From Mobula hypostoma (lineage: Eukaryota), in assembly GCF_963921235.1 (NCBI RefSeq), contig NC_086097.1, positions 30,692,001 to 30,756,000 of the forward strand: DNA of 64,000 bases. Direction: 5' to 3'. Shown here piece after piece: positions 739 to 62,574 of the stretch. Position 1 is the stretch's first letter, and each line of letters starts with the position of its first letter. Below the pieces are notes generated by a model. That model did no database searches and had not been told where the DNA came from. It saw only the letters and a list, made by a program, of their open reading frames with translations. A program made the position numbers and the translations under genes.

Positions 739-867
739 CTGTGGAACAAAAATAAGATTATTTCAAAAAAAGCCGCTGCACTCACCGGCGGTAATTGTGC
801 ACGGAAAGGAGGAAAAATATATTAAATCAGTGCAATGCAACCTAGTGTGGATTATTTCATTGCGTAC

Positions 868-6560: not shown

Positions 6561-9500
6561 CAACACAGAACACAATGCAAGAGAAATCATTGTTGAAGGA
6601 CATTCAAACCCTGCAGACAGATGGCTGTGCTCCACAAACAGTCATAAGGCTGCTGACCAGCAGGAGGCACTAGTGGGGTACAGAACCTAGACCATCCTAC
6701 AGCCTGCAACACTTGACATCTGTGCAGAGACTTCTGGCTTCCTGCCAGCTCTGGGGTGATAAGAAAGACCAGAGATGCAGGTACTAACTCTCCCAAACCA
6801 GAAACAGTCACAACTCTGGCCGAGTGAACTAGGGCTTTTCTCTTTTGGACCGATGAAGGATGAGAAGCAATGAGATGTATAAGATTATAAGAGGCATAAA
6901 TCGAGTAGATAGCCAGTGCCTTTTCCCAGGGTGGCAATGGCTAATACTCAAAGACGTACTTTTACTGTAAGTTTAGGGAAGTGGTGGATTCCTGCAACAC
7001 ACTGCTAGGGATGATGGTAGAAGCAGTAACATACCAAACAAGAATCAAGTTTATTATTATTTACATATGATAATAAATTTGTTGTTTTGCAGCAGCAGAA
7101 CAATGCAATGCATAAAAATTACTATAAGTTGCAATAAGAAATATAAAAAATAAATCTGCAGTCCACAAAAATAGGGCAACATAATGAGGATGTGATAATG
7201 GACCATTCAAAACCCTAATGGCGTTGGAGAAGAAGCTGTACCTAAAACATTAAGTGTGTGTCTTCAGGCTCCTGTCCCTCCTCCCCGACAGTAGCAATGA
7301 AAAGAGGGCATGTCCTGGATAGTGAGGGTCCTTAATGATGGATGCCACCTTACTGAAACATTTTTTAAAGATATCTTCAAAGGTGGAGAGTGTTGTGCCT
7401 CTGATGGAGCTGGCTGAGTTTACAACCCTCTGCAGCTATTCCTGATCCTACGCATTGCCCCCCACCCACCCCCATACCAGACGGTGATGCAGTCAAAATG
7501 CTCTCCATGGTACATCTGTAGAAACTTGCTAGGGTCTTTGGTGACATGCCAAATACCAATATAAGAGAGTTTTAGATAAGCACATACGTGAAAGAAAAAC
7601 AGAGGGCTGTGGGCTCTGTAGGAGGGAAGGGTGAGATTGATCTTGGAATAGATTGAAAGTTTAGCACAACATTGTGGACAGGTGGCCTGTTCTGTGCTGT
7701 GCTGTTCTATGTTTCATGGTCTAACTCACAAGATGAAGGAGGAGGTAGGCAAGCTGTTAGACATTAAGGTCCAAGAAGAACTTGTGACTGAAGGAACAGA
7801 TGGTGGGTGGAAAGTGTTCATGGGCCCAGCACCTAGTGGACAACTCTACATGGATTCTTCAATCAATTGTATTTATTTACTTATCACACCTGTGTGGAAA
7901 CATACAGTGAAATGTGTAATTTACATGAACAACCAACACAACTCATTAAAGACGTGCCGTGGCAGCCCACAAGGGTCGCCACATATTTTGGTGTCAATAT
8001 AGCAGGCCCGCAATGACAGGCCACAAGTATTGTCACACATTCAGCGCCAACATACATGCCCACCATGTTCAGCAGAACATTAACCACAGGAATCGCTAGT
8101 CTTCATCCACATCACTTGACAACCTGACATCCATCCACAGGGATCGCTGGCCTTTGACGATGAAGCTCTCCTACCTGGACTCCAGCCTGACCTCTACATC
8201 CCCCTCATCCCTGTTCCCAAACCCTAAGCTGTCTTCTAAATCCCCACACCAATCCCTAAACCACCTCGATGAACTTTTCGTTACCACCCTCAGAAGTGCA
8301 GGCAGCATTGGATTGGTGCAGAGGGACGCAGAATTAACATTTCAGGTTCAAAAGTTCAAAGTAACTTCATAATCAAAGTACATATATGGATTGAGATCCA
8401 TTTTCTTGCAGGAATTTACAGGAAAAATACAAACCAGTTAAGATACTCCCCACTGTGCATCTGTAGGAGTTTGTCAAAGCTCCTGTCACCAGATCTGCCC
8501 AAATATCTATCAGAGTAGGCACTCCACCTAAAAACAGGACAGCTTGCACCAATCAGAGTAGCCGCTGCCGATCTTTAACCTGTGAGCCACACTAAATTTG
8601 ATTGCTCACTCAAGAAACTGAAAGGATGAACAGAGTGGCTTCTTTCTGTACAGCAATGCATACAAACTGCTGGATAGACTCTGACATCAGGCGGCATCTA
8701 TGATAAGGAATGAACAGCTGGCGATTCGGGCTAAGACCCTTTATCAGGACTCTTGATGAAGGTTCTCCGCCCAAAACATCAACATTCCTCTCCATTGAGG
8801 CTGATTCCCTCCAGCATTCTGTGTGTATTACTCCGGATTTCCAGCATCTGCAGAATCTCTTGCGTTCCTTCTGTACAGTTCCGATTCCATTCTGTAACTG
8901 AGCCACCGTCTGCAGTTGAACAGGGAGACCTGTCCTGTGTCGGTGCCATATGGAGCCCTGTCATTGTGTGAGCAGGTAAACTGAGTATCAGTGTGGGCAG
9001 GGTGCATCTGAATTATTTATCAAAGCACATGTTTCGATTGCATAAACGTAAACATGATGAGCCCGACCCGTCACATCTGTTACGAAGCTCAACCTCTGGC
9101 CTTTCAGTCTTATCTGCTTTCCAGGTGAATAATGTTTTATTTCTACAGCCTGCACAAAGGATGGAGGGTGTGACCACAATTGGCTGCGCTGCCTCAGCGC
9201 ATATCGCAATATACTCCAGCTGTTCGGTGTGAGCGCTGAGCCAGAGACTGCGATTCCCTCCCCATGGTCAATTAATAACCACGGGAACCATAAGATAATT
9301 CAGCCTGTCAAGTCTGCTCCAGCGTGTGATCATGAACCTAGAACATAACACAGTACAGGCCCTTTTGCCCATGATGTTGTGCTGCCCTTTTCACATACCC
9401 TAATCCAACTCTTCCCTCCTTTTCTATCACCTACAATATGTGTCTAATACATGCCCCTAATATATATGTCACCAGCCCTGGCAGTGTGTTCCAGGCACCC

Positions 9501-10071
9501 ACCTCACTCAGTGTAAAAAAAATCTTTCCTCCGAGATCCTCTTGAACTTACTTTCATTGGCTGATTTATTATCCCTCTCAACCCCATTCTCCTGTCTTTT
9601 CCCTGTAAACCTTTGACTTCTTACTAATCTAAGCTATCAACGTCTGCTTTAAATATCCCCAATGACTTGGTCTCTACAGCCGTCAGTGGTGAAGAATTCC
9701 ACAGATTCATCACCCTTTAGCTAAAGAAATTCCTTATCACCTCTGTTCTAAAGGGACGTCTTCCTATTCTGAGGCTGTGCCCTCTGGTCCTAGACTCTAT
9801 AAAGTGTTGTAAAGCATTACGCTGCCATGCCACCCACGTGTACCAATTCCTATTGCCCCAAGTACCAAGATACAGTGTAAGACTTGCCTGCTTATACTGA
9901 TCATTTCATTACACAGCGCATCAAAGTAGTACAAGATAAAACAATAACAGAATGCAGAATAAATTGTAATAGTTACAGAGAAAGTGCAGTGCAGGCAGAT
10001 GGTAAGGTACAAGATCATAATGAGGTAGATTGTGCAGTCAGGAGTCCATCTCATCATACTCGGGAACCACT

Positions 10072-10990
10072 CAATGGTCTTATCTTGGGACCAGCACATA
10101 AGTGCCATAATAAATAAGACACAACAGTGCCTTTACTTTCTTAGAAGTTTGTGTACATCTGGCATGCCAGCTAAAACTTTGACAAACTTCGACAGATGCA
10201 CAGTGGAGAGTATCCTGACTGGTTGCATCATGACCTGGTATGGAAACACCAATGCCCAGGAATGGAAATGTGGTCGATACAGCCCAGTCCATCACAGGAC
10301 TGTAAAGCCTTGCCCACCATTGAGCAGATTTGCATGGAGCACTGCCACAAGAATGCAGTATCCATCATCAAAGGCCCCTACCATTCAGGCTATGCTCTCT
10401 TCTCACTCCTACCATCATGCAAGAGGTACTGGAGCTTTTGGTCCCACACCACCAGGTCCAGGAACAGTTATTGTCCATCAACCATCAGGCTCCCGAACCA
10501 GCGTGGATAACTTCACTCACCTCAACTCTAAACTGACTCCAGAACCTACAGCAACACACATCAAAGTTGCTGGTGAACGCAGCAGGCCAAGCAGCATCTA
10601 TAGGAAGAGGCGCAGTCGACGTTTCAGGCCGAGACCGACGAAGGGTCTCGGCCTGAAATGTCGACTGCGCCTCTTCCTATAGATGCTGCTTGGCCTGCTG
10701 CGTTCACCAGCAACTTTGATGTGTGTTGCTTGAATTTCCAGCATCTGCAGAATTCCTGTTGTTTCCACAACCTACAGGCTCACTTTCAAGAACTCGACAA
10801 CTCATGCTCTCAGCATTTTTAAAATTTGCACATCTTCTTTTGCACACTGGTTGTTTGTCAGTCTTTGTTTGTGTAAAGTTTTTCATTAATTCTGTTGAAT
10901 TTCTTTATTTTACTGTAATTGTCTGCAAGAAAATGAAACTCAGGGTAGTATATGGTGACACATATGTACTTTTATAATAAGTTTACTTTC
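10072..10990 (+). mobile_element. Rex1/Babar-like LINE 3' fragment interrupted by a Penelope hairpin
   Basis: Reads LSWDQHISAIINKTQQCLYFLRSL...ESILTGCIMTWYGN; the host resumes after the duplicated site at 10764-10776. Confidence 0.7.
10551..10763. mobile_element. Penelope-derived inverted terminal-repeat (hairpin) insertion
   Basis: Near-perfect inverted arms of about 86 bp (10551-10636 and 10644-10729); flanking direct repeat tccagaacctaca/tccacaacctaca. Confidence 0.8.
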
Positions 10991-19563: not shown

Positions 19564-20013
19564 GTGGTTTACATTTTCAAGGGTGGTATCGTCAACTTTT
19601 GTGGAGGGCTATAAAAATGGTTGGTTAGGTGGTGGCTAATATAGGATCTGTGTCTTTTTTATGTTCAAAACAAGATGCATGGCCCTTTATGCCTTGGCAA
19701 AGGCACTCAGGGTTGAAAAGCATGTTGTCCATTCTGTACGTGGTTTGGATTCCCTGTGGCAAGTCTTGGCCGATGAGGTGAAGGATGGCAGCAATAAAGA
19801 CGACAAATAGGGTGGGTGCAGTGATACAGCCCTGCTTCACTCCTGTCTGGACAGTGAACGGTTCTGATACTGCACCACTTTTGCTGAGTACTGTGGCATC
19901 ATGAAGTAGCGTAAGGACGAGTCAAGACAGCCATGTCTTGATAGTATACACCACAGAGCTTGGTAGTCTACCATATCAAATACCTTTGACAAACCTGTGA
20001 AAGGGTTGCCTTT

Positions 20014-20384: not shown

Positions 20385-21525
20385 GGTTTAATATCTCCGG
20401 CATGGGTCATGAAATTTGTTAACTTAGCGGCAGCCATACAACGTAATACATAATATAGAGAAAAATACATTAAAAATGAGTTACTGTAAGTGTATATGTA
20501 TATATACATTAAATAGTTACATTAAAAATAGTACTGCAAAAACAGGATTTTTTAAAAAGTGAGGTACTATTCATGGGTTCAATGGCCATTTAAAAATCAG
20601 ATGGCAGAGGCGAAGAAGCTGTTCCTGAATCATTGAGGGTGTGCCTTTAGGCTTCTGTACCTCCCCCCCCCCAATGGTAACAGTGAGAAAAGGCCTGTCC
20701 TGGATGATGGGCACCGCTCCTTGAAGATGTCTTGGATACTATAGAGGCTAGTACCCATGATGGAGCTGACTAATGTTATAACTTTCTGTAGCTTCTTTCC
20801 ATCCTGTGCAGTCGCACCTCCCCCACCTCCCCCATACCAGACAGTGATGCAGTCTGTCAGGAAGCTCTCCATGGCACATCTGTAGAAATTTTCAAGTGTT
20901 TTAGGTGACAAACCAAATCTCCTCAAACTCCTCATGAAATATAGCCACTGTCTTGCCTTCCTTATAGCTGCATTGATATGTTGGGACCAGGTTAGATCCT
21001 CAGAGATATTGTCACCCAGGAACTTGAAATTCCTCACTCTCTCCACTTCTGATTCCCTCGATAAGGATCGGTTCGTGTTCCCTCGTCTTATCCTTTCTGA
21101 AGTCCACAATCAGTTCTTTGGTCTTACTGACATTGAGTGCAAGGTAGTTGCTGCGACACCACTCAACTAGCTAGTATATCTCGCTCCTGAGTCCCTAGTC
21201 TCCATCTGAGATTCTGCCAACAATGGTTGTATCATCTGCAGATCTGTAGATGGCATTCGAGCTATGCTTAGCCACACAGTCACGGGTATAGATAGAGTAG
21301 AGCACTGGGCTAAGCACATGTCCCTGAGGTGTGCCAGTGTTCGTCATCAACAAGGAGGAGATGTTACTACCAATCCACACAGATTGTGGTCTTCCAATTA
21401 GGAAATCGAGGATCCAGTTGCAGAGGGAAATACAGAGGCCCAGGTTCTGTAGCTTTTCAATCAGTTCCATTGGAATGATGGTGTTAAACACTGAGCTATG
21501 GTAAACGAACAGCATTCTGACATAG
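20385..21525 (-). mobile_element. Rex1/Babar-like LINE RT 3' half
   Basis: Reads [15 protein letters not shown]...CNWILDFL...[25 protein letters not shown] and FKFLGDNISEDLTWSQH. Confidence 0.78.
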
Positions 21526-22339
21526 GTGTTTGTACTGCAGTATGGTTTTCTCTATCTAGAGATACTGCAGACATGACCTATGCCTCTTATCATCTTCTAT
21601 ACCTCTACCAAGTCACCTCCCATCCTCATTCTCTCCAAAGAGAAAACCATTATTTGCTCAACCTTTCCTCAAAAAAACATGCTCTCTAATCTAGACAACA
21701 TCCTGGTAAATCTCCTCTGCAACCTCTTTAAAGCTTTCACATCCTTCCTCTAATGAGGCATCCAGAAATTAATACAATACTCGGAGTATGAATCATAATC
21801 AGATTTATTATCTCTGAGTGATTCTATATATGTTGTTTGATTTGCTGACTTCCTCCAGCATTTTGTGTGTGCTGGAGGTTTGTTATCTCTGATATACAGT
21901 ATGCCATTATTTTGTGACAACAGTATATGGTGCAAGACATTAAAATTTCTAAAAGTTACAAAAATAAATAAATCGTGTTAAAGAGGAACAGTGAGGTAGT
22001 GTTCATGGGTTCATGGACTGTTCATAAACATGATGGCAGAGGGGAAGAAGCTGTTCCTAACATGTTGAGTGTGGGCCTTCAGGCTTTTGTACCTCGTCCC
22101 TGATCGTAATAATGAGAAGAGGGCATGTCCCGGATGGTGAGAGACCTCAGTGATGGATATCCGCTTCTTGGAGCTCCACCTCCTGAAGATGTTTTCGATG
22201 TGTAAGCTTTAAAGGGGACCTGAGGGTGGTGAGTATATGGAATGACATATACATGTCATATAACATGGCAAGCAGTTGAGGCAAGTACATTTACAAAGTT
22301 TAAAAGATACTTGACAGGAAGGATAGAAATTGTTTAGAG

Positions 22340-27649: not shown

Positions 27650-30600
27650 AACTCCCAAGATTATCTTCCAAGATGGCACCATGTATGACGGCCATGTTGT
27701 GTGCTCCGTTCCAAATCTACAGTATACTACTAATTTCTACGATTTTCTTAGCATTTTCTGTTCAAGTAGCTGACAGTCACATCAGATATGATAGACTGAC
27801 CCTTCTGAACATCAGAAAGATGGCATTTATCCATTATGTGCTGCCTTTCCTACACTGGGATCCCCTGCTTGCGTAATCCATAGGAGGCTCACCTCTTACA
27901 CCCTCATTACCTTGGAAGAAGCGATGGAGGTGAGGGAGAAGGGCCGGCGTCCTGGTGAGGCTGAGATAGTGTGCAAATGGGCCACTACTCACTTGCATAC
28001 TCCTGGCTAATGTTCAGTCCCTGGATAACAAGCTTTGTGAACTGAGAGCCAGAATCTTCTATCAGCAGGAAATGCAACGTTTTGTGCTTTGTGGAGACCT
28101 GGCTGATGGATGAGATACCGAATCATGCCATCAAGCCCTCTGGGTTCTCCCTGTTCCGGGCAGGCAGGTCAGAAAGAAAGCCTCACTGGGAAGAGTAAAG
28201 GAGGAGGAGTACGCTTCATGGTCAACAATGCTTGGTGAGACCCTCAGAATGTGCATGCTCTCAAATCTTCTTGTTCCCCAGACCTGAAATACCTGGTGCT
28301 GCTGTGCAGACCTTACTGGCTGCCTAGGGAGTTCACAGCTGTTATCATCGCAGCGGTGTATATTCTGCTGCAGGCTGGTACTGACCTGGCTCTCAAGGAA
28401 CTGTACGAGACCATCAACACGCTGGAGACTGCACACCCAGAGGCTGCCTTCATCGTCACCGGTGACTTTAATCGAGCGCTGCTGACAAAAGTCTCTCCGA
28501 AGTTTTGTCAGCACATCCAGGTGAACACTCATGGAGATGACACACTTGACCACTGTTACACTCCCTTCTGCAACACTTACAAAGCTCTCCTTCGCCCAGT
28601 TTTTGGAAAATCAAATCATTCTTCGAACCTGCTTTTGCTGAGGTACAGGCAGGAGCTGAAACAAGAGGCGGGCATAGTTAAAACCATCCACTGTTGGTCT
28701 GACCAATCGGCCTCCATGCTGCAGGACTGCTTCGATAAAGTCGACTGGAATGTCTTCCATGATGAGAATGTCTCCGAGTTCACTGATGGAGTCACGTGCT
28801 TCGTCCAGAAGTGCATCGACGATGTTGTCCCCCAGAAGTTGGTCAGGGTCTTCCCGAACCAGAAACCCTGGATCAATAGTTCTGTGCGACCCAGCACTTA
28901 CAGCACGACATCGAACTTACATCGCTGGAGCTCAACAAGAGCTCAAGAAAAGTAGCTATGATCTGCACAAAGCTATCAAGGCTGCAAAACAACAATACAG
29001 GGACAAGACTGAGTCAAGATTCACAACGAATAGCACACGTGACTTGTGGCGAGGGCTGCATACCATCGCAGACTTCAAAGCCAAACGTTGTGGTGCTGCC
29101 AACATCATGGCCTCTCTCCCAGATGAGCTCAATTGCTTTTACGCTCGGTTCGATGTCGCTAACTCTCAGCCTCCGAGGAAAGCCATCACTACAACCTGCA
29201 ACCTGGTCATCTCTGAGGCTGAGGTACGCAGATGTTTCCAACGAGTGGACAGTCACAAGACTGTGGGACTGGACGGCATCCCAGGGCGAGTACTCAGGAT
29301 GTGCGCAGCACAACCGGCAAGTGTGTTTACTCACATTTTTAATCTCTCCCTCTCCCAGTGTAAAGTGCCCTCCTGCTTCAAATTATCCACCATCTTCCCA
29401 ATACCAAAAAAGACCAAGGTAACATGCCTGAACAACCGCCATCCTGTCACACTCACCTCAATAATAAGCAAATGCTTTGAGAGGCTGGTCAAGGATTACA
29501 CCTGCAGCTTGTTACCACCCACACTGGACCCCCTACAATTCGCCTACCAACACAACTGATCGACAGACGACGTGATAGCCACTGCTTTACCTACCATCCT
29601 TACACATCTGGAGAAGAAGGATGCTTATGTGAGAATGCTGTTCGTGGACTACAGTTCAGCATTCAACACAACAGTTCCATCCAGGCTTAACAAGATGCTC
29701 AGAGACCTTGGCCTTGACCCTGCCTTGTGCAACTGGATCCTGGACTTCCTGTCAGATCGCCAGCAAGTGGTAAGAGTGGGCTCCCTCACCTCGACGCCCT
29801 CTGACTCTCAATACAAGAGCCCCTCAGGGCTATGTACTGAGTCCCCTCCTTTACTCCCTTCATACCCATGACTGTATCACCACCCACAGCTCCAATCTAC
29901 TAATAAATTTGCCAACAACACTATATTGATTAGCCTAATCTCAAACAATAACGAGGTGGCCGACAGGGAAGAAGTCATCTCTCTGACACAGTGGTGTCAA
30001 GGGAACAACCTCTCCCTCAATGTCGCAAAAACAAAGGAGCTGGTTGCGGATTACAGCAGGAATGGAGATGGGCTAACCCCTGTTGACATCAATGGATCTG
30101 GGGTTGAGAGGGTAAACAGCTTTAACTTCTTCGGTATCCACATCAGCGAGGACCTCATATGGTCTGTTCACACCAGCTGTGGGGTGAAAAAAGCACAACA
30201 GTACCTCTTTCACCTCAGACGGTTGAGGAAGTTTGGTATGGGCCCCCAAATCATAAGAACTTTCTACAGGGACACAACTGAGAGTATCCTGACTGGCTGC
30301 ATCACTGCCTGGTATGGGAACTGTACCTCCCTTAATCACCGGACTCTGCAGAGTGGTGCAAACAGCCCAGCGTATCTGTAGTTGTGCACTTCCCATGATT
30401 CAGGACACTTTCGAGAACAGATGTGTAAAAAAGGCCTGTAGGATCATTGAGGACCTGTGTCACCCCATCCACAATCTACTCCAGCTGCTACCATCTGGGA
30501 AATGGTACCACAGCAAAAAGTCAGGACCAACAGGCTCTGGGACAGCTTCTTCCACCAGGCCATCAGACTGATAACTCATGCTGATTTGTGACTGCTCTAT

Positions 30601-45120: not shown

Positions 45121-45996
45121 GTGGTGTTGTGGATAGTATAGAAGGTTGTCATAGGTTACAATCGGACATTGACAGGATGCAGAGCTGGGCTGAGACATGG
45201 CAGAAGGACCTCAAACCAGAAAAGTGTGAAATGCTACACTTCTGAAGGTTGAACTTGAATGCAAGGTTAACAGCAAGATTCCTGGCAGTGTGGAGGAACA
45301 GGGGGATCTTGGGATCTATGTCCACAGATCCCTCAGAGTTGCCATGCAATATGACTGTGTGGTTAAGAAGGTGCCTGGTGCATTAGCCTTCATTAATAAG
45401 GGGATTGAGTTCAAGAGCCACGAAGTAACATTGCAGCTCTATAAAACCCTGGTTAGACCGCACTTGGAATGTTGTATTCAGTTCTAGTCACCTCATTATA
45501 GGAAAAATGTGGAAAATTTAGGAAGAGTGCAGTGGAGCTTTACCAGGATGTTGCCTGGATTAGAGAGTACATCTTATGAGAATAGGGTGAGTAAGCTGGG
45601 GCTTTTCTCTTTGAAGCAGAGGAGGATGAGAGGTGACTTGATAGAGGTATAGAAGATGATAAGAAGCATAGATAAAGTGGAAATCCAGAGATTCTTTTCT
45701 GCTGTGGAAATGGCTAATTCAAGAGGCATCATTTTAAGGTAATTGGAGGGAAGTATAGGGGCAATGTTAGAGATAGGCTTTTTACACAGGGAGTGGTAGG
45801 TGCGTGAAACACCCTGCCAGAGGCGGTCGTAGGGGCAGATACATTAGAGACATTTCAGATACTCTTAGATAGACACATGGATGAAAGTAAACTTGAGAGC
45901 TATATGGGAGGGAGGGGTTAGATTAATCTTAGAGTAGGTTAAAAAGTCAGCACAACATTGTGGGATGAAGGGTCTGTAATGTGCTGACTGTTCTAT
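45121..45996 (+). mobile_element. CR1 LINE 3' fragment
   Basis: Reads EEQGDLGIYVHRSL...LQLYKTLVRPHLECCIQF and ends in a CR1-type tail. Confidence 0.78.
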
Positions 45997-46660: not shown

Positions 46661-46922
46661 TCACGAGGAAGACAAGAGGTATTTGGAAGCCTGTAGGCGG
46701 GAGGCGATCCTTTCCTGAAACCACATAAAAGCAAAATTCACGCCTGCTGTTTTTGGGATGCACTCGTCGAGGACAAAGGTCTGCCAGTCTTTCCGGGGGA
46801 GGTGAACCACTTCAATCAGCTCTCCCTCCTCGGGCTTCCCACCGTCCGTTCCCATATGCATGTCATCCGAAACCTCCACGTAAAACATGGTGTGCTTGGC
46901 TCCTGTCAGCCCAACACCCGAC
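46661..46922 (-). CDS. NUDT14: NUDT14 (UDP-glucose pyrophosphatase, Nudix hydrolase) last coding exon
   Basis: ccctttAG acceptor; reads SGVGLTGAKHTMFYVEVSDD...GGKPEEGELIEVVHLP...IPKTAGVNFAFMWF to TGA at 46663-46661; phase matches the upstream exon (AG|G = Arg). Possible ATTAAA polyA signal at 46554-46559 (-). Confidence 0.93.
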
Positions 46923-46964
46923 CTAAAGGGCAGAGGCACACGTTAGCCTGTGTTTTCAGATAGT

Positions 46965-47520
46965 GTGGGGGAGGAAAGGGGTTCAAAGAAAACAGATACA
47001 GGGAGAGGGGCAAACAGAGGAAGTGAGAGAGAGAGTGTCAGAGAAAGTGAGAGGCTAGAAGAGCGGGAAAGGGGAGAAGAGAAAAGAGCAGATGGAGAGA
47101 GAAAGAGATAGAAAAAAAATTGAAAGGACACACACACTAAATGCTAGAGTACCTCAGCAGGGCAAGGGACATCTATGGAGGGAAATGAATAGTCAATGTT
47201 TTGGGCAAAGGGAAGGGGATAAAGTGATTGTATGATACACTAAGGAGAGGGGGAGAAGGGGAAAGGGGGAGAAGGGGAGAAGGGGGAGGGGGAGAGGGGG
47301 AAAAGGAGAGAGAGAGACTGAGAGACAAAGATGTGGGCAGAAAAAGATGGAGAAAGGGTGGTGAAGAGATTGAAAGATAGACAGAAAGTAGGCAGTGAGA
47401 AACACAGTGACAGTGAAAATGAAGAGAGTAGAAAACAGACGGCAAAAGGAGAGAGACACACATGAAGGGATTCAGTAAAGGACATGAAGAAAGACAGCAG
47501 GAACAGAAAGCAGATAGTAA
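46965..47520. repeat. Purine-rich low-complexity tract (pyrimidine-rich on the NUDT14 sense strand)
   Basis: GA-rich sequence next to the last-exon acceptor. Confidence 0.7.
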
Positions 47521-49389
47521 AACAAACAAATGAGATTCTGCATGATGCCAAAAATCTCAAGCAACACACGAAAAATGCTGGAGGAACTCAGCAGGTCAGG
47601 CAATCTCTATGAAGAGGAATAATCAGTCGACATCAGGCTGAGACCCTTCATCAGGACTGGAAAGCAGGGGGTGAAAAGCCAGAATAAGAGGTTGGGGGGA
47701 GAGGATGGAGTACAGGCTGGCAGGTGATAGATGAGGGGGAAAGTAGGTAGTGGGAGAGGGGAGGGAGTGATGTTAAAAACTGGGAGGTGGTAAGTGGAAG
47801 AGGTAAAGGGCTGAAGAACAAATCTGACATTCAAACCTAGTCGACTGTTTATTCCCCTTCAGGGAGTAACCCTGCAGGCTGCCTGCGGCATATCTTTGGA
47901 CTGTGTTGGTCATCGTCACAAAGGATGCATTTCACTGTATGTTTCCATAAATCTGAATCTGAATCTGCCATTCTTCCTACTGTCTTCTGGCACCAGAGCA
48001 GGATCGCCAAGAGTACTAATCGTTAAACTGGGAACTGCTCTTTCACCGAATACCAGATCGGGTCTGAAGAAGGATTCAGGGCCACCTACTGAATGAGGTC
48101 TGTAGGACTGCAAAGAATAACTGTAAGAAATGCTTCCTTTTAACTAGAGCAACAACCTGCTGGAGCAACTCAGTGGATCAAGCAGCACCTGTGGGAAAAA
48201 CAGAACTGTCAACTTCTCAGATCGAAACCTTGCTCAACCTGCTGAGTTCCTCCAGCAGATGGTCTGTTCCTCTGGATTTCAGCATCTGCAAGTTGTATCT
48301 CTATGTATTTAATTAATTGCATTAAATTCACTATTTTCAATAACGCAAGCTTATTTATTTTTATTGATTTTTTAAAATTTTAGCATATTAATACCATTTA
48401 TTTTTAATTGAATAATGTATAGTATTTCAGAGAGTTTTTAAATCATTCTGAATATCAGAGAGATTGAGAAACCTTAACATGTTTAACAGACAGCAGAGCA
48501 GAGGAATCATAGTGTCATAAATTCATATAACACAGAAACAGGCCCTTCGGCCCAACTGGTTCATACCAACCACAGCATCCCCCCTGAATGTCCCAGTTAT
48601 TTATTTATTTAGTGATACAGCATTGAATAGGCCCTTCCGGCCCTCTGAGTTGTACAGCTCCAGCATTCCCCAACAACCCGAGTTAATTCTAACCTAATCA
48701 GAGGACAATTTCCAATGACTAATTGCCCACATTCAGTCCATAACCTTCAAAGCCTCTCCCGTCCATGTACCTATCCAGATGTTGTAATAGTACCTGTCTC
48801 AACCACTTCCTTTGGCAGCTCTTTCCAGGTATTCACTACCTTCTGAGTAAAGAAGTTACCTCTCTAGTCTCTTTTAAACCTTGGGGTGGGGGGGGCAGAA
48901 GGGGAAGTACAAACTGGCAGGTGATAGGTGAGATAGGTGATAGGAGAACGTGGGTGGGTGGGTGAGGAGAAAACTCAGAGGGATAGTGGAAAATTTAAGG
49001 GGCTTAAGAAGAAGGAACCCACGTTCTTACTAGCCTCTATGACCCTCTTTTCCAGTCCTAATGAAGGGTCTCAGTCTAAAAAAGCGACTGTTTATTTCTC
49101 TCCAATAGGTGCTGCCTGACCTGTTGAGTTCCTCCAGGACTTTAGACCATAAGATATAGAAGCAGAATTAGGCCATTTGGCCATTGAATCTGCTCCACCA
49201 TTCACCATGGCTGATTCATTATTCCTCTTAGCCCCAATCACCAGCCTTCTCTCCATATCCTTTCATGCCTTGACCAATCAAGAATCTATCAACCTCTGCC
49301 TTAAATATTTGTAAAGACTTGGCCTCCACAGCTGCCTGTGGCAACAAAGTCCACAGATTCACCATTCTCTGGCTAAAGATAATTCCTTC

Positions 49390-50030
49390 TTGCAGTTATA
49401 AAGAAAGCAAGACAGTGGCTATACTTCAGTAGGAGTTTGAAGAGATTTGGTTTGTCAACAAATACACTCAAAAACTGTACAATGGAGAGCATTCTGGCAA
49501 GCTGCATCACTGTCTGGTGTGAGGGTGGGGGGGTTACTGCACAGGACCAAAAGAAGTTGCAGAGGGTTGTAAATTTAGTCGGCTCCATCTTGGGTACCAG
49601 CCTACAAAGCACCCAGGACATCTTCACAGAGCCGTACCTCAGAAAGGCAGCATCCATTATTAAGGACCTCCAGCACCCAGGGCATGCCCTTTTCTCACTG
49701 TTACCATCAGGTAGGAGGTACAGAAGCCTGAAGGCACACACTCAGCGATTCAGGAACAGCTTCTTCCCCTCTGTCTAAATGGGCATTGAACCCTTGGGCA
49801 CTACCTCACTTTCTTAATATATATTATTTCTGTTTTTTGCACTATTTTTAATCTATTCAATATACATATACTGTAATTCATTTACTTATTTATTATTATT
49901 ATTTTATTTTCTTGTTTTTTTCTTCTATATTATGTATTGCATTGAACTGCTGTTAACAAATTTCACGTCACATGCTGGTGGTAACAAACCTGATTCTGAT
50001 TCTGAATTCTGACTCTGAATTCTGATTTCC
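49390..50030 (+). mobile_element. Rex1/Babar-like LINE 3' fragment with an (ATTCTG)n tail
   Basis: Reads ESILASCITVWC...LQRVVNL...HPGHALFSLLPSGRRYRSL; same subfamily as 20385-21525. Confidence 0.75.
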
Positions 50031-50036
50031 GAATTC

Positions 50037-50560
50037 TGAATTCCTCATCTCCATTCTAAAAGGATGCTCCTCTATTCTGTGTCCTCTGGTCCTAGACTCT
50101 CCAGCCATAGGAAAAATCCTCTTCACATCCACCCTATCATGCCCTTTCACCATTTGATAGATTTCAATTAGGTCACCCCTCATTCTTCTGAGTTCTAGTG
50201 AATTCAGGTCCAGAGTCATCAAACGCTCTTCATCTGACAAACCGTTCAATCCTGGATTCATTTTCGTGAGCCTCCTTTGAGCCCTCTCTAGTGTCAGCAC
50301 ATATTTTCTAAGATAAGGGGCCCAGAACTGTTCAGAATACTCTAGGTGAGGCCTCTCTGGTGCTTTATAAAGTCTCAAAATTACATTTTTGCTTTTATAT
50401 TCTAGTGAAGACTATTGCAAAATACTTATTCAATTTGTCCCCATTACTACCTCTATTAGACCTCGCCAGCATCATTTTCCAGTGGTCCAATATCCATTCT
50501 TGCCTCTCTTTTACACTTTATGTATCTGAAGAAACGTTTGGTATTCTCTTTAATATTATT
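50037..50560 (-). mobile_element. CR1 fragment (host of the 50561 insertion; resumes at about 51267)
   Basis: Reads RLYKAPERPHLEYSEQFWAPYLRK...RRMRGDLIEIY; the host sequence ...taatattatt|ggctagcttac... is split by the insertion. Confidence 0.72.
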
Positions 50561-50757
50561 GGGGTGTATGGGATGTCAGGGAGGGACAGCACCTCTCTGG
50601 TGGGGAAACATGTTGTGTCCTTTTCAAGGCAGTTAGTCCACCTTTGGCCCCCACCTGGTACTCAGCTCTCACCTGTGACTCCTTGTAGCTGTTTGCACGC
50701 AACAGCGGCCACACCCCGGGCAACGGCTTCGACAAGCCGGCTAAACCAGGTGAGGGT
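50561..50757 (+). ncRNA. HDV-like self-cleaving ribozyme
   Basis: P1 GGGGUGU (50561-67)/ACACCCC (50711-17); P2 GCUCUCACCUG (50665-75)/CAGGUGAGGGU (50747-57); P3 GAC/GCC with one mismatch; L3 UCC pairing with GG (50718-19); P4 CGGCUU/AAGCCG; J4/2 GCUAA with the candidate catalytic C at 50741. Confidence 0.72.
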
Positions 50758-51084
50758 AGCCGACGGGTCTCAAACCCTCGGTGAGAAGGGAGTTGTCTAT
50801 CCCAGCATGTGAAGACAGACTCTGGCGGATTGAGCGGACGAGACCAATGGAAGGTCCAGTGGTCAAGAAGGTGGTCCCTGCAAGCGTCATGGAACATGTA
50901 GAGCACAACAAGACACAGAAGACGTCCTGGTCATCCACTGTGCCTAGTCTCACCTCCAGCCATCTCGACTCTTGTCTTGTCACTGGATCCAGATGGGAAT
51001 TAGGAAGGGAGGGTGAGGCTGACGCTGCACAACTCTCCCTCACTTAAATCCAAATCACGTGCTTGTCTCAACACTATCAAGCTG

Positions 51085-51222
51085 ACTGGTGGCGCAGTGA
51101 CATCAGCACTGGACTCCGGAGCGAAGGTTCCCGAGTTGAATCCAGTCGGGACGCTCCCAGGCACGCTTTCCATCTGTGCTGTGTTGAGTGTCGAGCTAGC
51201 AACTCGACCTCATAAAAAGTAC
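51085..51222 (+). mobile_element. Short tRNA-derived SINE
   Basis: ggtggcgcagtg A-box-like and gagttgaatcc B-box-like motifs; ends aactcgacctcataaaaa. Confidence 0.6.
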
Positions 51223-51715
51223 TAATGGTGTCGAGGTCTTCATCGATGACAATGGACGAACCTTAAGTTGGCTAGCTTACTTTCATATTCCATTCTTTTC
51301 TCCTTAATGAGTTTTTTGTTGCCTTCTGTTGGTTTGGATTTTGCGGGTGTTGCTCTGGATCTCTGCAGAACCTCTTGTGTAACTGTTGCTGGGAGTCAAG
51401 GTCAGAACTAGAGAGTGAGGCCGGGCAGGCTAGGACTTTGTTGCTTGGAGTGTACGAAACTAGGAGTGATCTTACAGAGGTATAAAATTGAGGGGTACAG
51501 CTAGGGTGAATTCACTCAGTTTTTTCTGCAGAGTTCAGAATTTAGAAATTAAGAACTGGAGAAGCAAAGGGAAAGATTTAATAGGGGCCTGAGGGTCAAC
51601 TTCTTCACACAGATGGTGGTCAGTATATGGAATGAGCTGCTAGAGGAAGTGGTTGAGGTAGGTATATTGACAAAAATTATTTGATATTTAGGTATGTAGA
51701 TATAAAGGTTTCGAT

Positions 51716-51794
51716 CAGGGGTTCCCAACCTGGAGTCCACGGACCTCTTGGTTAATGGTAAAGGTCCATGGCATAAAAAGGTTGGGAACCTCTG
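51716..51794. mobile_element. hAT MITE inside a CR1 3' tail
   Basis: TIRs caggggttcccaacc/ggttgggaacctctg; reverse orientation relative to 22340-22413; decayed 8-bp TSD gtttcgat/gcttagag. Confidence 0.75.
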
Positions 51795-52568
51795 GCTTAG
51801 AGAGATATGGGCCTAAGCAGTTAAATGGAACTTGCTCAAGCGGGCATCTTGGTCAGCAAGGGCCTGTTTCTGTGCCATGTAATTATGACTCTAACTTCCT
51901 GCCATATGACAACTTATTCCTTTTGAATGATAAATCACTGTGGTATTCAGTTTTAATCACACTGTTTACCACATTTTTGACACATGGGCCCATCAGAGGT
52001 TACTAAGAATACAAGTTGCAGAAATCATAAAGGTTTAATAAACTAAATAGAATATATAATATCACTCATACATTACTACAACAAGCGAGTTCACCAACAC
52101 CTCTACTTCCTCAGGAGGCTAAAGGAATTTGGGATGTCCACTATGCAGCAGAGAAAGCATCCTATCTGGATGCACCACAGCTTGGTACGGCAACTGCTCT
52201 GCCCATGACCGTAAGGAAACGCTGAGAGTTGTGGACACAGCTCAGCCCATCAGGGAAACCAGCCTCACTTCCATGGATTCTGTCTACACTTCTCGCTGCC
52301 TTAATTAAAGACGCCATACATCCCAGACATTCTGCCTTCTCCCCCTCATCCATTAGGCAGAAGATGCAAAAGCTTGAAAGCACAGGGCACCAGGCTCAAG
52401 GACAGACTCTACCCCACTGTGATGACAACTGAACAGTCCCCTAGTATGATAAAATGGACTCTCAATCTCACAATCTACCTTATCATCTGCCTGAACTGTG
52501 GTTTCTCTGTAATTGGAACAGTTTAGAACAGTGCAGCACAGTATGGGCCCTTCAACCCAAGATATACT

Positions 52569-60600: not shown

Positions 60601-61283
60601 CATGACAACAGGGGCAGAGCCAATCAGCTGCCTTTACTCCATTCACACATGTCACCTCAGTACAACTGACTTCAATCTTAGCTTAACACAGTCTTAACCT
60701 ACTTAACATTCCGACAGAAGACACTTCAGAGAGAGATATCATACACCTAAGTACAACACACACAGTGTGCTGTATGACAGGGAGAACATACCGTATAAAT
60801 AATGTGTCTGTGGGGGGAAATATTTCTCAGTGGTCTCTAATGACAGAATAATGGAGTCATAGAGCACTACAGCACAGAAACAAGTCCTTCAGCCCATCTA
60901 GTCCATGCCAAACTGTTATTCTGCCTAGTCCCATTGACCCGCACCTAGACCATAGCTCCCCATACCCCTCCCATCCATGTGTTGACGTAGTTCTCCAAAC
61001 TTCTCTTAAATGTTCCAATCAATCTTGCGTTCACTCTTCCGCTGGCAGCTCATTCTAAACTTGCACCACCCTCTGAGTGAAGAAGTGTCTCCTCAGGCTC
61101 CCCTTAAATATTTCACCATTCACCATCAACGTATGACCTCTAGGGAAAGCCCCACACCATTGACCAATCGCCATCAATTCAATTGCCCCACTAGCAGCAC
61201 TTCCTTTCACGTTCTCTCAGGAAGCAAAGAAGGAAACTGAAGCCAATCACTGGATATCACCACTACCGACAAAAAGTGCTCAC

Positions 61284-61533
61284 CTGTACGAGGTAATCTT
61301 CTGTAGGCTTTCTAATGGCACCCTGTAGCCACATTCCTCCTGGATCTCTTCCTTGACTGTTTCCTCCAGTGAAAGTCCCGGCTTGTCAACAATTCCGGCA
61401 CAAAGCTCGTATGTGATTCCAGCAGAGGCAGGTAAAGGCTGCACTGGCACACGGGCCTGGGGATCTGCATCCATGGACACTGCATCGACCATGGGCAGTA
61501 TACCTTGCCTTGCACACTCGCACGCATAGACAG
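61284..61533 (-). CDS. NUDT14: NUDT14 penultimate coding exon containing the Nudix box; upstream exons are not seen in the window
   Basis: 250 bp between tttccAG and GTgagc; reads AVYACEC...SAGITYELCAGIVDKPGLSLEETVKEEIQEECGYRVPLESLQKITSYR. Confidence 0.93.
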
Positions 61534-62574
61534 CTGGAAACAAAGATGCACAAAGATTAAATATATTTTACAGATTAGCTTTATTTGTCATGAGCACATC
61601 GAAATATACAATGCAATACATCATTTGTGTCAATGACCAACACATTCTAAGGATGTGCTGGGGATAGCCCGCAAGTGTCAACATGCATCTGGCACCAACA
61701 TAGAACGTCCACAACTTACTAAACTTAACCCATACATCTTTGGAATGTGGAAGGAAGCCCATCAAACACGGGTAGAACATACAAACTCCTCGCAGGCAGC
61801 AGCAGGAATTGAACTCTGATCTTCGGATTGCTGGTGCTCCAAAGTGTTATGCTCACTGCTATGCTACCTGCAACCCAAAGCTGAGCATCTTACAGCACTG
61901 AAGGAAGCAATGAGTTTTTGATAGATAATTGGACAGGTTCACAGATACACAAAGTTTAGAGGGATGTGGGCAAATGGGGATAGCTCTTGGTTGGCATGGA
62001 CAAATTGAATATAATTTAATAGTACTTTCTAGGAGCCAGAACAGGTACAATGAATTGAATTCGAGTCACGTAGTGTGAAAAAAGGCCCTTTGGCCCATCC
62101 AGCCCTTCCTGACCAAGTTGCTTACCCTAGCCCTTCCCAGTTGTCTGCATTTGATCCCCTATCCTTCGAAACCTTACCTGAGACATAAGTGCAGAATTGG
62201 GCCATATGGCCCAGTAAGTTTGGTGTGTCATTCAATCATGGCTGATTTATTTTCCTTCTCAACCCCATTCTCCTGCCTTCTCCCAGTAACTTTTGATTCC
62301 CCTACTAATTAGCATACAGCATAGTAGTGTAGTGGTTCACATAATGCTTTACAGCACCAGTGATCAGCGATCGGGGTTCAATTCCCACCTCTGTCTGTAA
62401 ACAGTTTGCACGTACCGCATTTCCAGTTTCCTCCCACATTCTTAAAGACATATGGGTCAGAGTTAGTAAGTTGTAGACATGCTACATTGGTGCCAGAAGC
62501 ATGGCAACACTTGTGGCCTGCACCCAGCACATCCTTGGACTGTGTTGAACATTGATACAAACGAAGCATTTCAC

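What the first reader, a model, noticed from the sequence alone, without database searches (positions are those of the whole stretch)
50561..50757. HDV-like ribozyme whose G1 is the first base of an ORF-less insertion in the NUDT14 intron
Seen in the sequence: every element of the HDV double pseudoknot pairs in the right order (P1 7 bp, P2 11 bp, P3, P1.1 CC/GG, the GCAA joiner, P4 CGGCUU-CGAC-AAGCCG, J4/2 GCUAA). The P1 5' strand starts exactly where the CR1 host is broken. Two unusual features are a ~97-nt J1/2 and an extra hairpin (GCUGUU/AACAGC, 50688-50706) inside L3. One P3 mismatch (A50678 opposite C) may weaken this copy. Established: HDV-like ribozymes define the 5' ends of R2 and RTE retrotransposons. 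Inference: this is a non-autonomous family that cuts itself out of read-through transcripts. It is antisense to NUDT14, so it should not cut that pre-mRNA.
Basis: partly seen in the sequence, partly recalled or inferred. Interest (0 to 1): 0.78.

Follow-up and report, generated by a model that had tools for sequence, protein, structure and literature searches.

The report
HDV-like ribozyme heading a ray/shark retroposon
The first ~197 bases of an old, gene-less 705-base mobile element, sitting backwards in an intron of NUDT14, can fold like the hepatitis-delta self-cutting RNA that some retrotransposons use to trim their own 5' end, but cutting has not been tested.

Summary
Window 50561-50757 (+) contains every element of the HDV double pseudoknot in the right order. 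It heads a ~705-bp repeat with target-site duplications and no poly(A), which I call family A. An older ~510-540-bp relative, family B, has the same 5' end.

For the ribozyme:
- In 27 of 29 A copies P3 is intact, so A50678 is a private mutation of this decayed copy.
- P1, P2, P3, P1.1, the L3 U..G and the J4/2 GCUAAAC are identical in the A and B majorities. P4 differs by a G-C to C-G swap.
- None of 296,558 shuffles of an intact copy gave a fold of this quality starting at base 1.

Against it:
- Rfam models give only a 13-bit sub-threshold hit.
- Loose descriptors match by chance, and folding energies are unremarkable.
- Only one or two independent covariation events exist.
- G1 pairs with C rather than U.
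- L3 carries a 19-nt hairpin.
- I obtained no evidence about RNA ends.

The NUDT14 context is confirmed: exons lie on the minus strand at 61283-61666 and 46664-46987, so the element is intronic and antisense.

Corrections: the insertion is 709 bp with a TTGG duplication, and 51080-51222 is a nested tRNA-SINE-like module. No LINE partner was found.

Verdict: probably (~0.7) a real HDV-like ribozyme of a non-autonomous retroposon. It is a known kind with a variant architecture.

The parts
50559..50562 (.). Upstream copy of the 4-bp target-site duplication TTGG. It overlaps the first two G of the element.
   Evidence: contigs of other copies of the host repeat join 50558 to 51268 (skip 709), with 4 letters fitting both sides; sequence.
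50561..51267 (+). Family-A non-autonomous retroposon copy, about 705 bp. It is 7.1% diverged from the family majority, the most decayed of the 29 copies compared.
   Evidence: 40 scored copies at 89-91% identity, nearly all full length, with flanking duplications. (divergence).
50561..50567 (+). P1 5' strand GGGGUGU. The proposed cleavage site is immediately 5' of G50561.
   Evidence: P1 90.7% of cells paired over 50 copies.
50568..50664 (+). J1/2, 97 nt. Its ends can pair (GUGUCAGG with CCUGGCAC in A; GUGUCC with GGACAC in B) to give a closed peripheral domain. It is 80% identical between the A and B majorities.
   Evidence: Folding energy is no better than shuffles in A copies (z +0.36 and -0.40) and z -2.3 in one B copy.
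50665..50675 (+). P2 5' strand GCUCUCACCUG.
   Evidence: 94.5% of cells paired.
50677..50679 (+). P3 5' strand GAC. The family majority is GGC, so A50678 is a private G>A change.
   Evidence: 27 of 29 copies have G. (A>G in 2241 of 2330, 1060 of 1068 and 151200 of 153534 depth units in X1, X2 and X13).
50680..50687 (+). L3 5' part UCCUUGUA (family A majority UCCCCGUA, family B UCCAAGUA). It has U at position 1, CC for P1.1 at 50681-82 and G at position 6 (50685).
   Evidence: U in 29/29 A and 20/21 B; G in 28/29 A and 21/21 B. Equating these with HDV U20/G25 is inference from passages of PMC13635239.
50688..50706 (+). Extra hairpin between the L3 core and the P3 3' strand (GCUGUU / AACAGC, 7-nt loop).
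   Evidence: helix 5 has 96.4% of cells paired. Its closing pair is GC in 36, GU in 7 and AU in 3 copies. It is present in both families.
50708..50710 (+). P3 3' strand GCC.
50711..50717 (+). P1 3' strand ACACCCC.
50718..50723 (+). P1.1 3' strand GG (50718-19) and the joiner GCAA. Family B has UACA as joiner.
   Evidence: The first G is CpG-decayed to A in 17 of 50 copies.
50724..50739 (+). P4 hairpin CGGCUU-CGAC-AAGCCG. Family B has CCGCUU-CGAC-AGG(C/U)GG.
   Evidence: pair 178-191 is GC in 21, CG in 11 and UG in 5 copies. This is the one clear compensatory change between the families.
50740..50746 (+). J4/2 GCUAAAC, with the candidate catalytic C at 50741.
   Evidence: C in 28/29 A and 17/21 B. 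The catalytic role is inferred by analogy with C75 (passages of PMC13635239).
50747..50757 (+). P2 3' strand CAGGUGAGGGU, the end of the ribozyme.
50758..51079 (+). Body of the element with no recognisable coding capacity. A/B majority identity falls from 72% to 52% along it.
   Evidence: six stop-free stretches of 61-124 aa gave 0 Pfam families.
51080..51222 (+). Nested tRNA-SINE-like module with A-box-like and B-box-like motifs and an A-rich end. It is absent from family B and from an 'A0' form of family A.
   Evidence: joints 51074/51079 to 51223-51226 in X1, X2 and X13. L062 copy without it.. The tRNA likeness is my own reading; ARAGORN and Rfam call nothing here.
51223..51267 (+). 3' tail ...GGUGUCGAGGUCUUCAUCGAUGACAAUGGACGAACCUUA(AG), with no poly(A). 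The motif UCAUCG...ACGAUGGAC.AACC is shared with family B.
   Evidence: 102 exact genome matches of the majority 23-mer.
51268..51271 (.). Downstream copy of the TTGG duplication.
61283..61666 (-). NUDT14 coding exon(s), matching residues ~25-147 of annotated cartilaginous-fish NUDT14.
   Evidence: E 1.9e-15 to human NUDT14 chains 3q91, 9gem and 8otv..
46664..46987 (-). Last NUDT14 coding exon (to residue 233 of 233). This places the element in the intron between this exon and the one at 61.3 kb, on the opposite strand.
   Evidence: tblastn of P0001, P0003, P0004 and P0006, E 1e-48 to 1e-56.

Best explanation
Window 50561-51267 (+) is a decayed copy of a dispersed, non-autonomous non-LTR retroposon, family A.

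The first ~197 nt of its RNA fold into an HDV-type double-pseudoknot self-cleaving ribozyme. In the active source copies, a transcript that started somewhere upstream would be cut just 5' of G1. That gives the uniform 5' end that is then copied into new insertions by a LINE reverse transcriptase recognising the 3' tail.

Shown:
- The fold is present.
- It starts at the element's 5' terminus.
- It is intact in the family majority.
- Its core is the best-conserved part between two families.
- The element transposed with duplications and has no recognisable protein domain.

Inferred:
- Catalysis.
- Read-through transcription.
- The identity of the reverse transcriptase.

The window copy itself is probably inactive, because it has an A.C mismatch in the middle of the 3-bp P3 and is 7.1% diverged. 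Being antisense to NUDT14, it cannot cut that pre-mRNA.
For: 1. Complete topology with the expected unpaired nucleotides. L3 reads U-C-C-N-N-G-U. This matches 6 of the 7 L3 letters in the R2 motif CCUCCUCGUGG quoted in PMC5035012 (passage). J1.1/4-P4-J4/2 aligns to the consensus GGCAACGG..CCGGCUAA of Rfam RF02682 (13.2 bits, E 1.8, below threshold).

2. The 5' end is independent evidence.
- 39 of 40 scored copies start within 4 nt of base 1.
- 19 of 29 copies have script-detected duplications. 10 of these abut base 1 (0 to +3). 7 have 2-11 unrelated extra bases before G1. None shares an upstream extension.
- Family B starts with the same GGGGTGTATGGGG.

3. Anchored at base 1, 0 of 296,558 shuffles of an intact copy matched the candidate's quality. 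8 of 29 A copies still pass the strict descriptor at that quality, and 6 of 29 keep all 34 pairs.

4. The family majority restores P3.

5. A versus B majority identity by region is P1 100%, core 88%, J1/2 80%, then 72%, 68% and 52% downstream. P1, P2, P3 and P1.1 are identical. P4 pair 2 swaps G-C to C-G, and P4 pair 5 changes U-A to U.G.

6. Over 50 copies, 92.4% of cells pair, against 33-49% with slid partners. 30 cells change on both sides, against a shuffled mean of 14.8 (0 of 500 shuffles reach it).

7. Precedent:
- HDV-like ribozymes define the 5' ends of R2, R4, Dong, baggins and L1Tc (PMC3774820, section 15).
- J1/2 loops of 216-498 nt occur in silkmoth R2 (PMC3774820, passage).
- Non-autonomous derivatives exist: R2 SIDEs (PMC3414825, abstract) and NARTc (PMC3383444, abstract).
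Against: - No Rfam HDV-like model reaches its gathering score. There was nothing on the whole window, nothing HDV-like at E<=10 in 50400-51400, and 13.2 bits against a threshold of 44 on the core alone.
- The loose descriptor is at chance level: 11 real sites against 13.2 in shuffles. The descriptor is post hoc.
- Thermodynamics are unremarkable. The core has z -1.7, and J1/2 has z +0.36 and -0.40 in A copies. The nested MFE recovers on average 65% (A) and 43% (B) of the proposed nested pairs.
- Covariation amounts to one clear event (P4 pair 2) plus an A-U variant of the hairpin's closing pair in 3 copies. Copies decay neutrally, and CpG decay on both strands can mimic compensation (pair 179-190).
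- G1 pairs with C (GC in 35, GU in 7 of 50) rather than forming the G.U wobble typical of HDV. That G.U is typical is my recollection.
- L3 is 28 nt with a hairpin. I recall no validated HDV-like ribozyme with this feature. In fruit-fly and silkmoth R2 the ~15 nt of P1.1/P3/L3 show high sequence identity (PMC3774820, passage).
- 7 of 29 A copies have A at position 3 without a compensating change and without linked diagnostic sites.
- There is no information on RNA ends. No RNA run is on record, and only contigs were available.
- No LINE partner was found.
Confidence: 0.7

Rival explanations
1. The conserved 5' ~200 nt is something other than a ribozyme, and the HDV-like pairing scheme is a coincidence in a G/C-rich sequence. 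Candidates are an internal promoter that fixes the start at +1 (as in many LINEs, and as Pr77 does in L1Tc), or a 5' structure bound by the reverse transcriptase.
For: - Uniform 5' ends and a conserved 5' region are equally expected of an internal promoter.
- J1/2, which is not part of the catalytic core, is also 80% conserved.
- The loose HDV descriptor matches at chance level, and folding z-scores are weak.
- Rfam models fail.
- One copy has extra G's between the duplication and G1 (L003). I recall that extra G's are sometimes read as cap-derived.
- The 5' end has four G-runs (GGGG-N5-GGGG-N5-GGG-N-GGGG). A G-quadruplex formed from them would compete with P1.
Against: - 0 of 296,558 composition-matched shuffles give an HDV fold of this quality starting at base 1.
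- The nucleotides that matter in HDV (L3 U and G, P1.1 CC/GG, J4/2 C-U-A-A) are all present and identical in both families.
- The P4 difference between the families is compensatory.
- A promoter and a ribozyme can coexist, as in L1Tc (PMC3383444, abstract). Evidence for a promoter would therefore not exclude the ribozyme.
Confidence: 0.2
2. The fold is a true descendant of an HDV-like ribozyme inherited from an autonomous ancestor, but it no longer cleaves in these families. The cause could be the L3 hairpin or the G1-C pair. The retained structure would then serve only as a protein-binding or stabilising 5' domain.
For: - In R2 the protein binds a pseudoknot within the ribozyme region, independently of cleavage (PMC6765202, section 11 passage).
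- The 28-nt L3 and the G1-C pair depart from the usual HDV-like pattern.
- A position-3 A.C mismatch in P1 recurs in 7 of 29 copies.
Against: - The catalytic-site nucleotides have stayed identical across two families that are otherwise 12-48% diverged by region. That is most simply explained by selection for catalysis.
- The hairpin sits after the conserved UCCNNGU, on the 3' side of L3. I infer that an outward-pointing insertion could be tolerated there.
- The precise 5' ends still need a cause.
Confidence: 0.1

Closest known systems
HDV-like ribozymes at the 5' ends of non-LTR retrotransposons (R2, R4, Dong, baggins, RTE, L1Tc)
   Same: - Double-pseudoknot order of helices.
- Cleavage site proposed at the element's first base.
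- A large structured J1/2 is tolerated; silkmoth R2 has 216-498 nt.
- An L3 core of the UCCNNGU type, a C-N-A-A J4/2 and a two-pair G-C P1.1.
- The presumed role is to release the element's RNA from a longer co-transcript.
(PMC3774820 passages and section 15; PMC6765202 section 11 passages; PMC5035012 passage.)
   Different: - No ORF.
- Dispersed insertions with variable duplications, rather than rDNA-specific insertion.
- A 19-nt hairpin between the L3 core and the P3 3' strand.
- G1-C instead of G.U.
- No Rfam model matches at threshold.
- Activity is untested.
Non-autonomous ribozyme-bearing derivatives: R2 SIDEs (Drosophila) and NARTc (Trypanosoma cruzi)
   Same: Short, ORF-less elements that keep the 5' HDV-like ribozyme and a 3' end used by the partner's reverse transcriptase (PMC3414825 abstract; PMC3383444 abstract; PMC6765202 passage).
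   Different: - SIDEs insert in 28S rDNA and have an identified R2 parent, and NARTc has L1Tc as parent.
- Here the copies are dispersed in a ~3.5-Gb cartilaginous-fish genome. The exact tail 23-mer occurs 102 times, and the first-look searches gave 7,000-9,000 candidates.
- No parent LINE was found.
- Family A also carries a nested tRNA-SINE-like module.
Rfam RF02682 (HDV ribozyme from F. prausnitzii) and the other HDV-like Rfam families
   Same: The stretch GGCAACGG...CCGGCUAA (J1.1/4, P4 and J4/2) aligns to the model consensus.
   Different: The score is 13.2 bits against a gathering score of 44 (E 1.8). The 97-nt J1/2 and 28-nt L3 cannot be accommodated, so this is not a member by that test.
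Canonical tRNA-derived SINEs
   Same: Non-autonomous, with duplications and a LINE-type 3' tail without poly(A).
   Different: The tRNA-like part is internal (51080-51222) and is a later nested insertion that is absent from families B and A0. A pol III promoter there could not produce the full-length RNA starting at G1.

Membership tests
HDV-like (delta-type) self-cleaving ribozymes | Nested double pseudoknot in the order P1-J1/2-P2-P3-L3-P3'-P1'-P1.1-J1.1/4-P4-J4/2-P2' | tested here: met
   for the window copy (one P3 mismatch); 8 of 29 A copies pass the strict descriptor at full quality, 3 more pass with a shorter P2 or P4, and 0 of 21 B copies pass because they are older and decayed; 92.4% of cells paired.
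HDV-like (delta-type) self-cleaving ribozymes | Catalytic cytosine in J4/2 (C75 equivalent) followed by N-A-A | tested here: met
   C50741 in GCUAAAC. C is present in 28/29 A and 17/21 B copies. The role is inferred from passages of PMC13635239.
HDV-like (delta-type) self-cleaving ribozymes | L3 with 5' U and a G five positions later (U20/G25 reverse wobble) and two nucleotides that form P1.1 | tested here: met
   UCCNNG is found in both family majorities. For P1.1, CG is present in 48/50 copies at one pair and 33/50 at the other, the second having decayed at a CpG.
HDV-like (delta-type) self-cleaving ribozymes | G1.U wobble closing P1 at the cleavage site (typical rather than strictly defining; recalled) | tested here: not met
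   Pair 2-170 is GC in 35, GU in 7, AU in 1 and other in 7 of 50 copies. The majority is G-C.
HDV-like (delta-type) self-cleaving ribozymes | Compact L3 of about 7-8 nt (typical; recalled, and reported as highly similar in sequence among fruit-fly and silkmoth R2 in PMC3774820) | tested here: not met
   L3 is 28 nt and includes a conserved 5-6-bp hairpin.
HDV-like (delta-type) self-cleaving ribozymes | Match to a curated covariance model at its gathering score | tested here: not met
   The best hit is RF02682 at 13.2 bits against 44.
HDV-like (delta-type) self-cleaving ribozymes | Covariation supporting the helices | tested here: inconclusive
   There is one clear compensatory pair in P4 and an A-U variant in the L3 hairpin. 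P1, P2, P3 and P1.1 are identical in the A and B majorities, so they say nothing either way.
HDV-like (delta-type) self-cleaving ribozymes | Site-specific self-cleavage 5' of G1 giving 5'-OH and 2',3'-cyclic phosphate ends | not testable with these tools
   Only indirect evidence is available: the uniform 5' ends of the copies.
Non-autonomous non-LTR retroposon (SINE/SIDE-like) | Many dispersed copies with defined ends and variable target-site duplications | tested here: met
   (duplications of 6-14 nt in 19 of 29 A copies). (TTGG at the window copy).
Non-autonomous non-LTR retroposon (SINE/SIDE-like) | No coding capacity of its own | tested here: met
   0 Pfam families in 6 stop-free stretches of 61-124 aa in the window copy. 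Only this one decayed copy was scanned.
Non-autonomous non-LTR retroposon (SINE/SIDE-like) | 3' tail shared with an autonomous LINE partner | tested here: inconclusive
   A and B share UCAUCG..ACGAUGGAC.AACC. A tail pattern that excludes the family-A upstream sequence gave 0 hits. Five candidate loci were only B copies.
Non-autonomous non-LTR retroposon (SINE/SIDE-like) | 5' pol III promoter (canonical SINE) | tested here: not met
   The tRNA-like module is internal and nested. ARAGORN and Rfam find no tRNA.

The most novel reading that the evidence does not exclude
The element carries a structurally new subclass of HDV-like ribozyme. It has a conserved hairpin inserted between the L3 catalytic core and P3, a closed ~95-nt J1/2 domain and a G1-C closing pair. 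It drives 5' processing of a dispersed, ORF-less retroposon in cartilaginous fishes that amplified to at least hundreds of copies (up to 7,000-9,000 first-look candidates), independently of rDNA and without a recognisable parent LINE.
Probability: 0.45. Interest if true: 0.65.

Novelty: new variant of a known kind. Interest (0 to 1): 0.52.

Why it matters
If the RNA cleaves, it would add a vertebrate, genome-wide dispersed, non-autonomous example to the retrotransposon-borne HDV-like ribozymes. The best-studied examples of these come from insect R2, trypanosome L1Tc and a few other LINE clades. It would also show that the delta fold tolerates a helix inserted in L3, which descriptors and covariance models currently forbid, so similar ribozymes may be systematically missed in vertebrate genomes. 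Copies inserted in the sense orientation in introns would then be potential pre-mRNA cleavage sites, which could be tested as an orientation bias. The window copy itself is a dead, antisense relic with no expected effect on NUDT14.

Tried and rejected
- Rfam on the whole window at gathering found nothing. At E<=10 on 50400-51400 it gave only two unrelated weak hits. On the core alone it gave a sub-threshold RF02682 hit.
- ARAGORN on 50000-52000 found no tRNA.
- RNA evidence: no RNA holder is listed. The four runs I laid were all Logan contigs, which cannot show starts or ends, and the table of molecule ends was empty.
- LINE partner:
  - Five loci where matches to family B stopped near position 400 were fetched with up to 8 kb downstream. 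They proved to be ordinary B copies.
  - A tail pattern excluding the family-A upstream bases gave 0 hits, and none of the 102 exact tail matches passed that exclusion.
  - A BLAST of the A and B majorities against all 65 loci and the window found no third family.
- A search for young copies, using the least diverged copy as query, gave a best non-self identity of 94-95%.
- Thermodynamic support from MFE and z-scores was too weak to use either way.
- The idea that 'xxAGTGT' starts mark a subfamily is rejected, because no linked sites exist.
- The idea that P1 was ancestrally GGGGCGU/ACGCCCC is rejected, because TG greatly outnumbers CG and CA in both families.
- A Pfam NUDIX scan of the whole genome found no match in the window. 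The exon was later found by scanning minus-strand ORFs (E 0.05, below cut-off) and confirmed against solved structures.
- Earlier findings of this scan: none for this genome, sequence or topic.
- Literature: searches listed no report of an HDV-like ribozyme in a cartilaginous-fish retroposon or of an L3 helix insertion. Ruminski et al. 2011 (PMC3308841) is not held, and its figures and supplements may bear on both points.
Full report
**The observation.**
- P1 is GGGGUGU (50561-67) with ACACCCC (50711-17).
- J1/2 is 97 nt.
- P2 is 11 bp (50665-75 with 50747-57, two of them G.U).
- P3 is GAC with GCC, with A50678 opposite C.
- L3 begins UCC, and its CC can pair with GG 50718-19 to form P1.1.
- A hairpin lies at 50688-50706.
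- The joiner is GCAA, and P4 is CGGCUU-CGAC-AAGCCG.
- J4/2 is GCUAAAC with C50741.

A descriptor that I wrote returns exactly this solution.

**Is it more than chance?** By motif alone, only moderately.
- With long J1/2 and L3 allowed, the loose descriptor finds 11 sites in the real window, against a mean of 13.2 in 16 dinucleotide shuffles.
- At the candidate's quality (P2 >=10 bp, P4 >=6 bp) the window has one site, and 16 shuffled windows had one between them.
- Rfam finds nothing at gathering thresholds and nothing HDV-like at E<=10 over 1 kb.
- On the 111-nt core alone, Rfam gives a sub-threshold hit to RF02682 (13.2 bits against 44, E 1.8) that aligns GGCAACGG..CCGGCUAA.
- Folding energies are unremarkable. 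The core has z -1.7, and J1/2 has z +0.36 and -0.40 in A copies and -2.3 in one B copy.

**What it belongs to.**
- The 705-bp stretch is a repeat in the window's own 3.48-Gb genome. There were 9,014 first-look candidates. The 40 that were scored are 89-91% identical to the query, and 39 of them start within 4 nt of base 1.
- The flanks of 30 loci show unrelated sequence on both sides, a 3' end ...GATGGACGAACCTTA without poly(A), and target-site duplications.
- My script found duplications of 6-14 nt in 19 of 29 copies. In 10 the upstream copy abuts base 1 (0 to +3, the plus values being G's shared with the target). In 2 it reaches +5 or +6. In 7 there are 2-11 unrelated bases between the duplication and G1.
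- For the window copy, contigs of uninterrupted copies of the host repeat join 50558 to 51268 with TTGG fitting both sides. The insertion is therefore 709 bp with a 4-bp duplication. Its first two G are ambiguous with the duplication, and its end is CCTTAAG.
- Exact matches of the majority 23-mer tail number 102 genome-wide. About 6 of the 29 aligned copies keep that 23-mer, by my count. Family A therefore probably has hundreds to a few thousand copies rather than 9,000.
- Copies are 2.6-7.1% from the family majority, and the window copy is the most diverged. The best pair found is 94-95% identical, so no young copies were seen.

**A second family.** Diverged copies in the flanks led to family B.
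- It is ~510-540 bp, with 7,027 first-look candidates. Copies are 75-81% identical to the query and 8.6-15.9% from their majority.
- It starts with the same GGGGTGTATGGGG.
- It lacks window 51080-51222.
- It ends ...GTCATCGTCGGACACGATGGACAACCACCAT.
- Joints 51074/51079 to 51223-51226 in three runs, and one copy in locus L062, show an 'A0' form of family A without that segment.
- Window 51080-51222 is therefore a nested insertion. By my reading it is tRNA-SINE-like (A-box and B-box-like motifs, A-rich end), although ARAGORN and Rfam call nothing. A pol III promoter there could not make the full-length RNA.

**Evidence that the fold matters.**
- The family-A majority has GGC/GCC in P3. 27 of 29 copies have G where the window has A, and nearly all contig depth in three runs reads G.
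- Between the A and B majorities, identity is 100% in the P1 strand, 88% in the P2-to-P2 core, 80% in J1/2, and then 72%, 68% and 52% downstream.
- P1, P2, P3, P1.1, the L3 U and position-6 G, and GCUAAAC are the same in both families.
- P4 differs as CGGCUU/AAGCCG against CCGCUU/AGGCGG, the latter CpG-decayed to AGGUGG in most copies. This is a G-C to C-G swap plus a U-A to U.G change.
- The L3 hairpin is kept in both families. Its closing pair is A-U in 3 copies.
- On the 50-copy alignment, 92.4% of cells pair, against 33-49% for slid partners. 30 cells change on both sides, against a shuffled mean of 14.8 (0 of 500 shuffles reach it). Seventeen of those 30 cells belong to the single P4 pair 178-191. 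The four in pair 179-190 could be CpG decay on both strands.
- Independent covariation events therefore number one, perhaps two.
- The strongest statistic uses the independently defined 5' end. In 296,558 dinucleotide shuffles of the first 212 nt of an intact copy, a fold anchored at base 1 reached the loose level 197 times, a perfect P3 17 times, and the candidate's quality never.
- 8 of 29 A copies still pass the strict descriptor at that quality, and 6 of 29 keep all 34 pairs.
- The descriptor was designed after I had seen the candidate.

**Departures from the usual pattern.**
- G1 pairs with C (35 of 50 copies; 7 are G.U through C-to-T decay) rather than forming the G.U wobble that I recall as typical.
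- L3 is 28 nt. Its first seven letters, UCCCCGU in family A, match 6 of 7 of the R2 L3 quoted within CCUCCUCGUGG (PMC5035012, passage). The hairpin follows them. I therefore read it as an insertion on the 3' side of L3, after the G25-equivalent whose importance is described in PMC13635239 (passages).
- A 97-nt J1/2 is not unusual, since silkmoth R2 ribozymes have 216-498 nt (PMC3774820, passage). Its ends can pair in both families in slightly different registers.
- 7 of 29 A copies have A at position 3 with no compensating change and no linked sites. I cannot explain this. It looks like something that happens at the 5' junction rather than a subfamily marker.

**Mechanism.**
- The best-supported reading (~0.7) is the known one for R2, R4, Dong, baggins, RTE and L1Tc. 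An element without a promoter of its own is transcribed from upstream, and the ribozyme cuts 5' of G1. The RNA is then copied at a new site by a LINE enzyme that recognises the tail (PMC3774820 section 15; PMC6765202 section 11 passages).
- Non-autonomous carriers are also known, namely R2 SIDEs (PMC3414825, abstract) and NARTc (PMC3383444, abstract). The review PMC6765202 states that some SINEs use hammerhead or HDV-like ribozymes.
- Catalysis, read-through transcription and the partner are all inferred. I found no partner.
- The main rival (~0.2) is an internal promoter or protein-binding 5' domain with a coincidental fold. A third reading (~0.1) is a ribozyme relic that keeps its shape but no longer cuts.

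**Context.**
- The element's stop-free stretches have no Pfam family.
- The flanks are a repeat. Just upstream, a plus-strand ORF (49383-49775) has a weak, sub-threshold ALKBH8_N hit (E 0.009). The same family scores above its cut-off in three other ORFs of the window (10029-10679 and 29872-30378 on the plus strand, 20633-21109 on the minus strand), the last lying close to RVT_1 hits. I recall this Pfam family as derived from CR1-type LINEs. 'CR1 host' is therefore plausible but not proven.
- NUDT14 is confirmed. The minus-strand ORF 61283-61567 matches human NUDT14 structures at E 1.9e-15. It also matches annotated cartilaginous-fish NUDT14 at up to 95% identity.
- tblastn places residues ~25-147 at 61666-61283 and the C-terminal exon at 46987-46664.
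- The element therefore lies in the intron between them, on the opposite strand, and cannot cut that pre-mRNA.

**Verdict.**
- It is a known kind of system with a variant ribozyme architecture, in a lineage where my literature searches listed no such report.

Noticed in passing
window 50561-50586 (+): The element's first 26 nt carry four G-runs (GGGG-N5-GGGG-N5-GGG-N-GGGG), a canonical G-quadruplex pattern that is kept in family B. If it formed in RNA it would sequester the P1 5' strand and compete with the ribozyme fold.
   Followed up: no
position 3 of family-A copies (loci L004, L012, L021, L022, L025, L027, L029): 7 of 29 copies read A instead of G at element position 3. They have no compensating change in the P1 3' strand and no other shared diagnostic site, so the change recurs independently of descent.
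   Followed up: partly
window 51080-51222 (+); depth peak at 51174-51204: This is a nested tRNA-SINE-like module. Its 3' half (about 51161-51218) is shared with other, much more abundant SINE families that have different tRNA-like heads, as the loose-end consensus sequences and the depth peak show.
   Followed up: partly
window 50650-50659 (+): In family A, J1/2 contains a near-copy of the P2 5' strand (CCCACCUGG against CUCACCUGUGG) that could pair with the P2 3' strand instead. Family B has CCCACCGGA there, so the alternative pairing is not conserved.
   Followed up: partly
window 358-762 (-): This ORF has a strong MNNL domain (N terminus of a Notch ligand; E 1.2e-37, 129 bits). It is probably the first coding exon of a Jagged/Delta-type gene lying downstream of NUDT14 on the same strand. 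I recall JAG2 as the neighbour of NUDT14 in human.
   Followed up: no
window 2568-3752 (+), 10029-10679 (+), 19628-19921 (-), 20633-21109 (-), 21198-21551 (-), 29872-30378 (+): LINE fragments are scattered through the intron and intergenic DNA. The hits are zf-RVT (E 1.3e-9), RVT_1 (E 6.8e-9 and 1.7e-4) and ALKBH8_N (E 1e-8 to 5e-7).
   Followed up: no
loci L002 (2205-2810) and L013 (880-1500): In 2 of 29 loci the family-A copy sits in the same orientation within ~85-160 bp of the 3' end of an older family-B copy. In L002 it lies inside a (TA)n run that follows the B tail. This may be chance or a preference for such sites.
   Followed up: no
window + strand 2413, 30730, 45906-45911; five more sites on the - strand (reverse-complement coordinates): These are other loose-descriptor 'HDV-like' matches in the window. 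They are at the rate seen in shuffles and none has a long P2 together with a solid P4, so I treat them as chance.
   Followed up: partly
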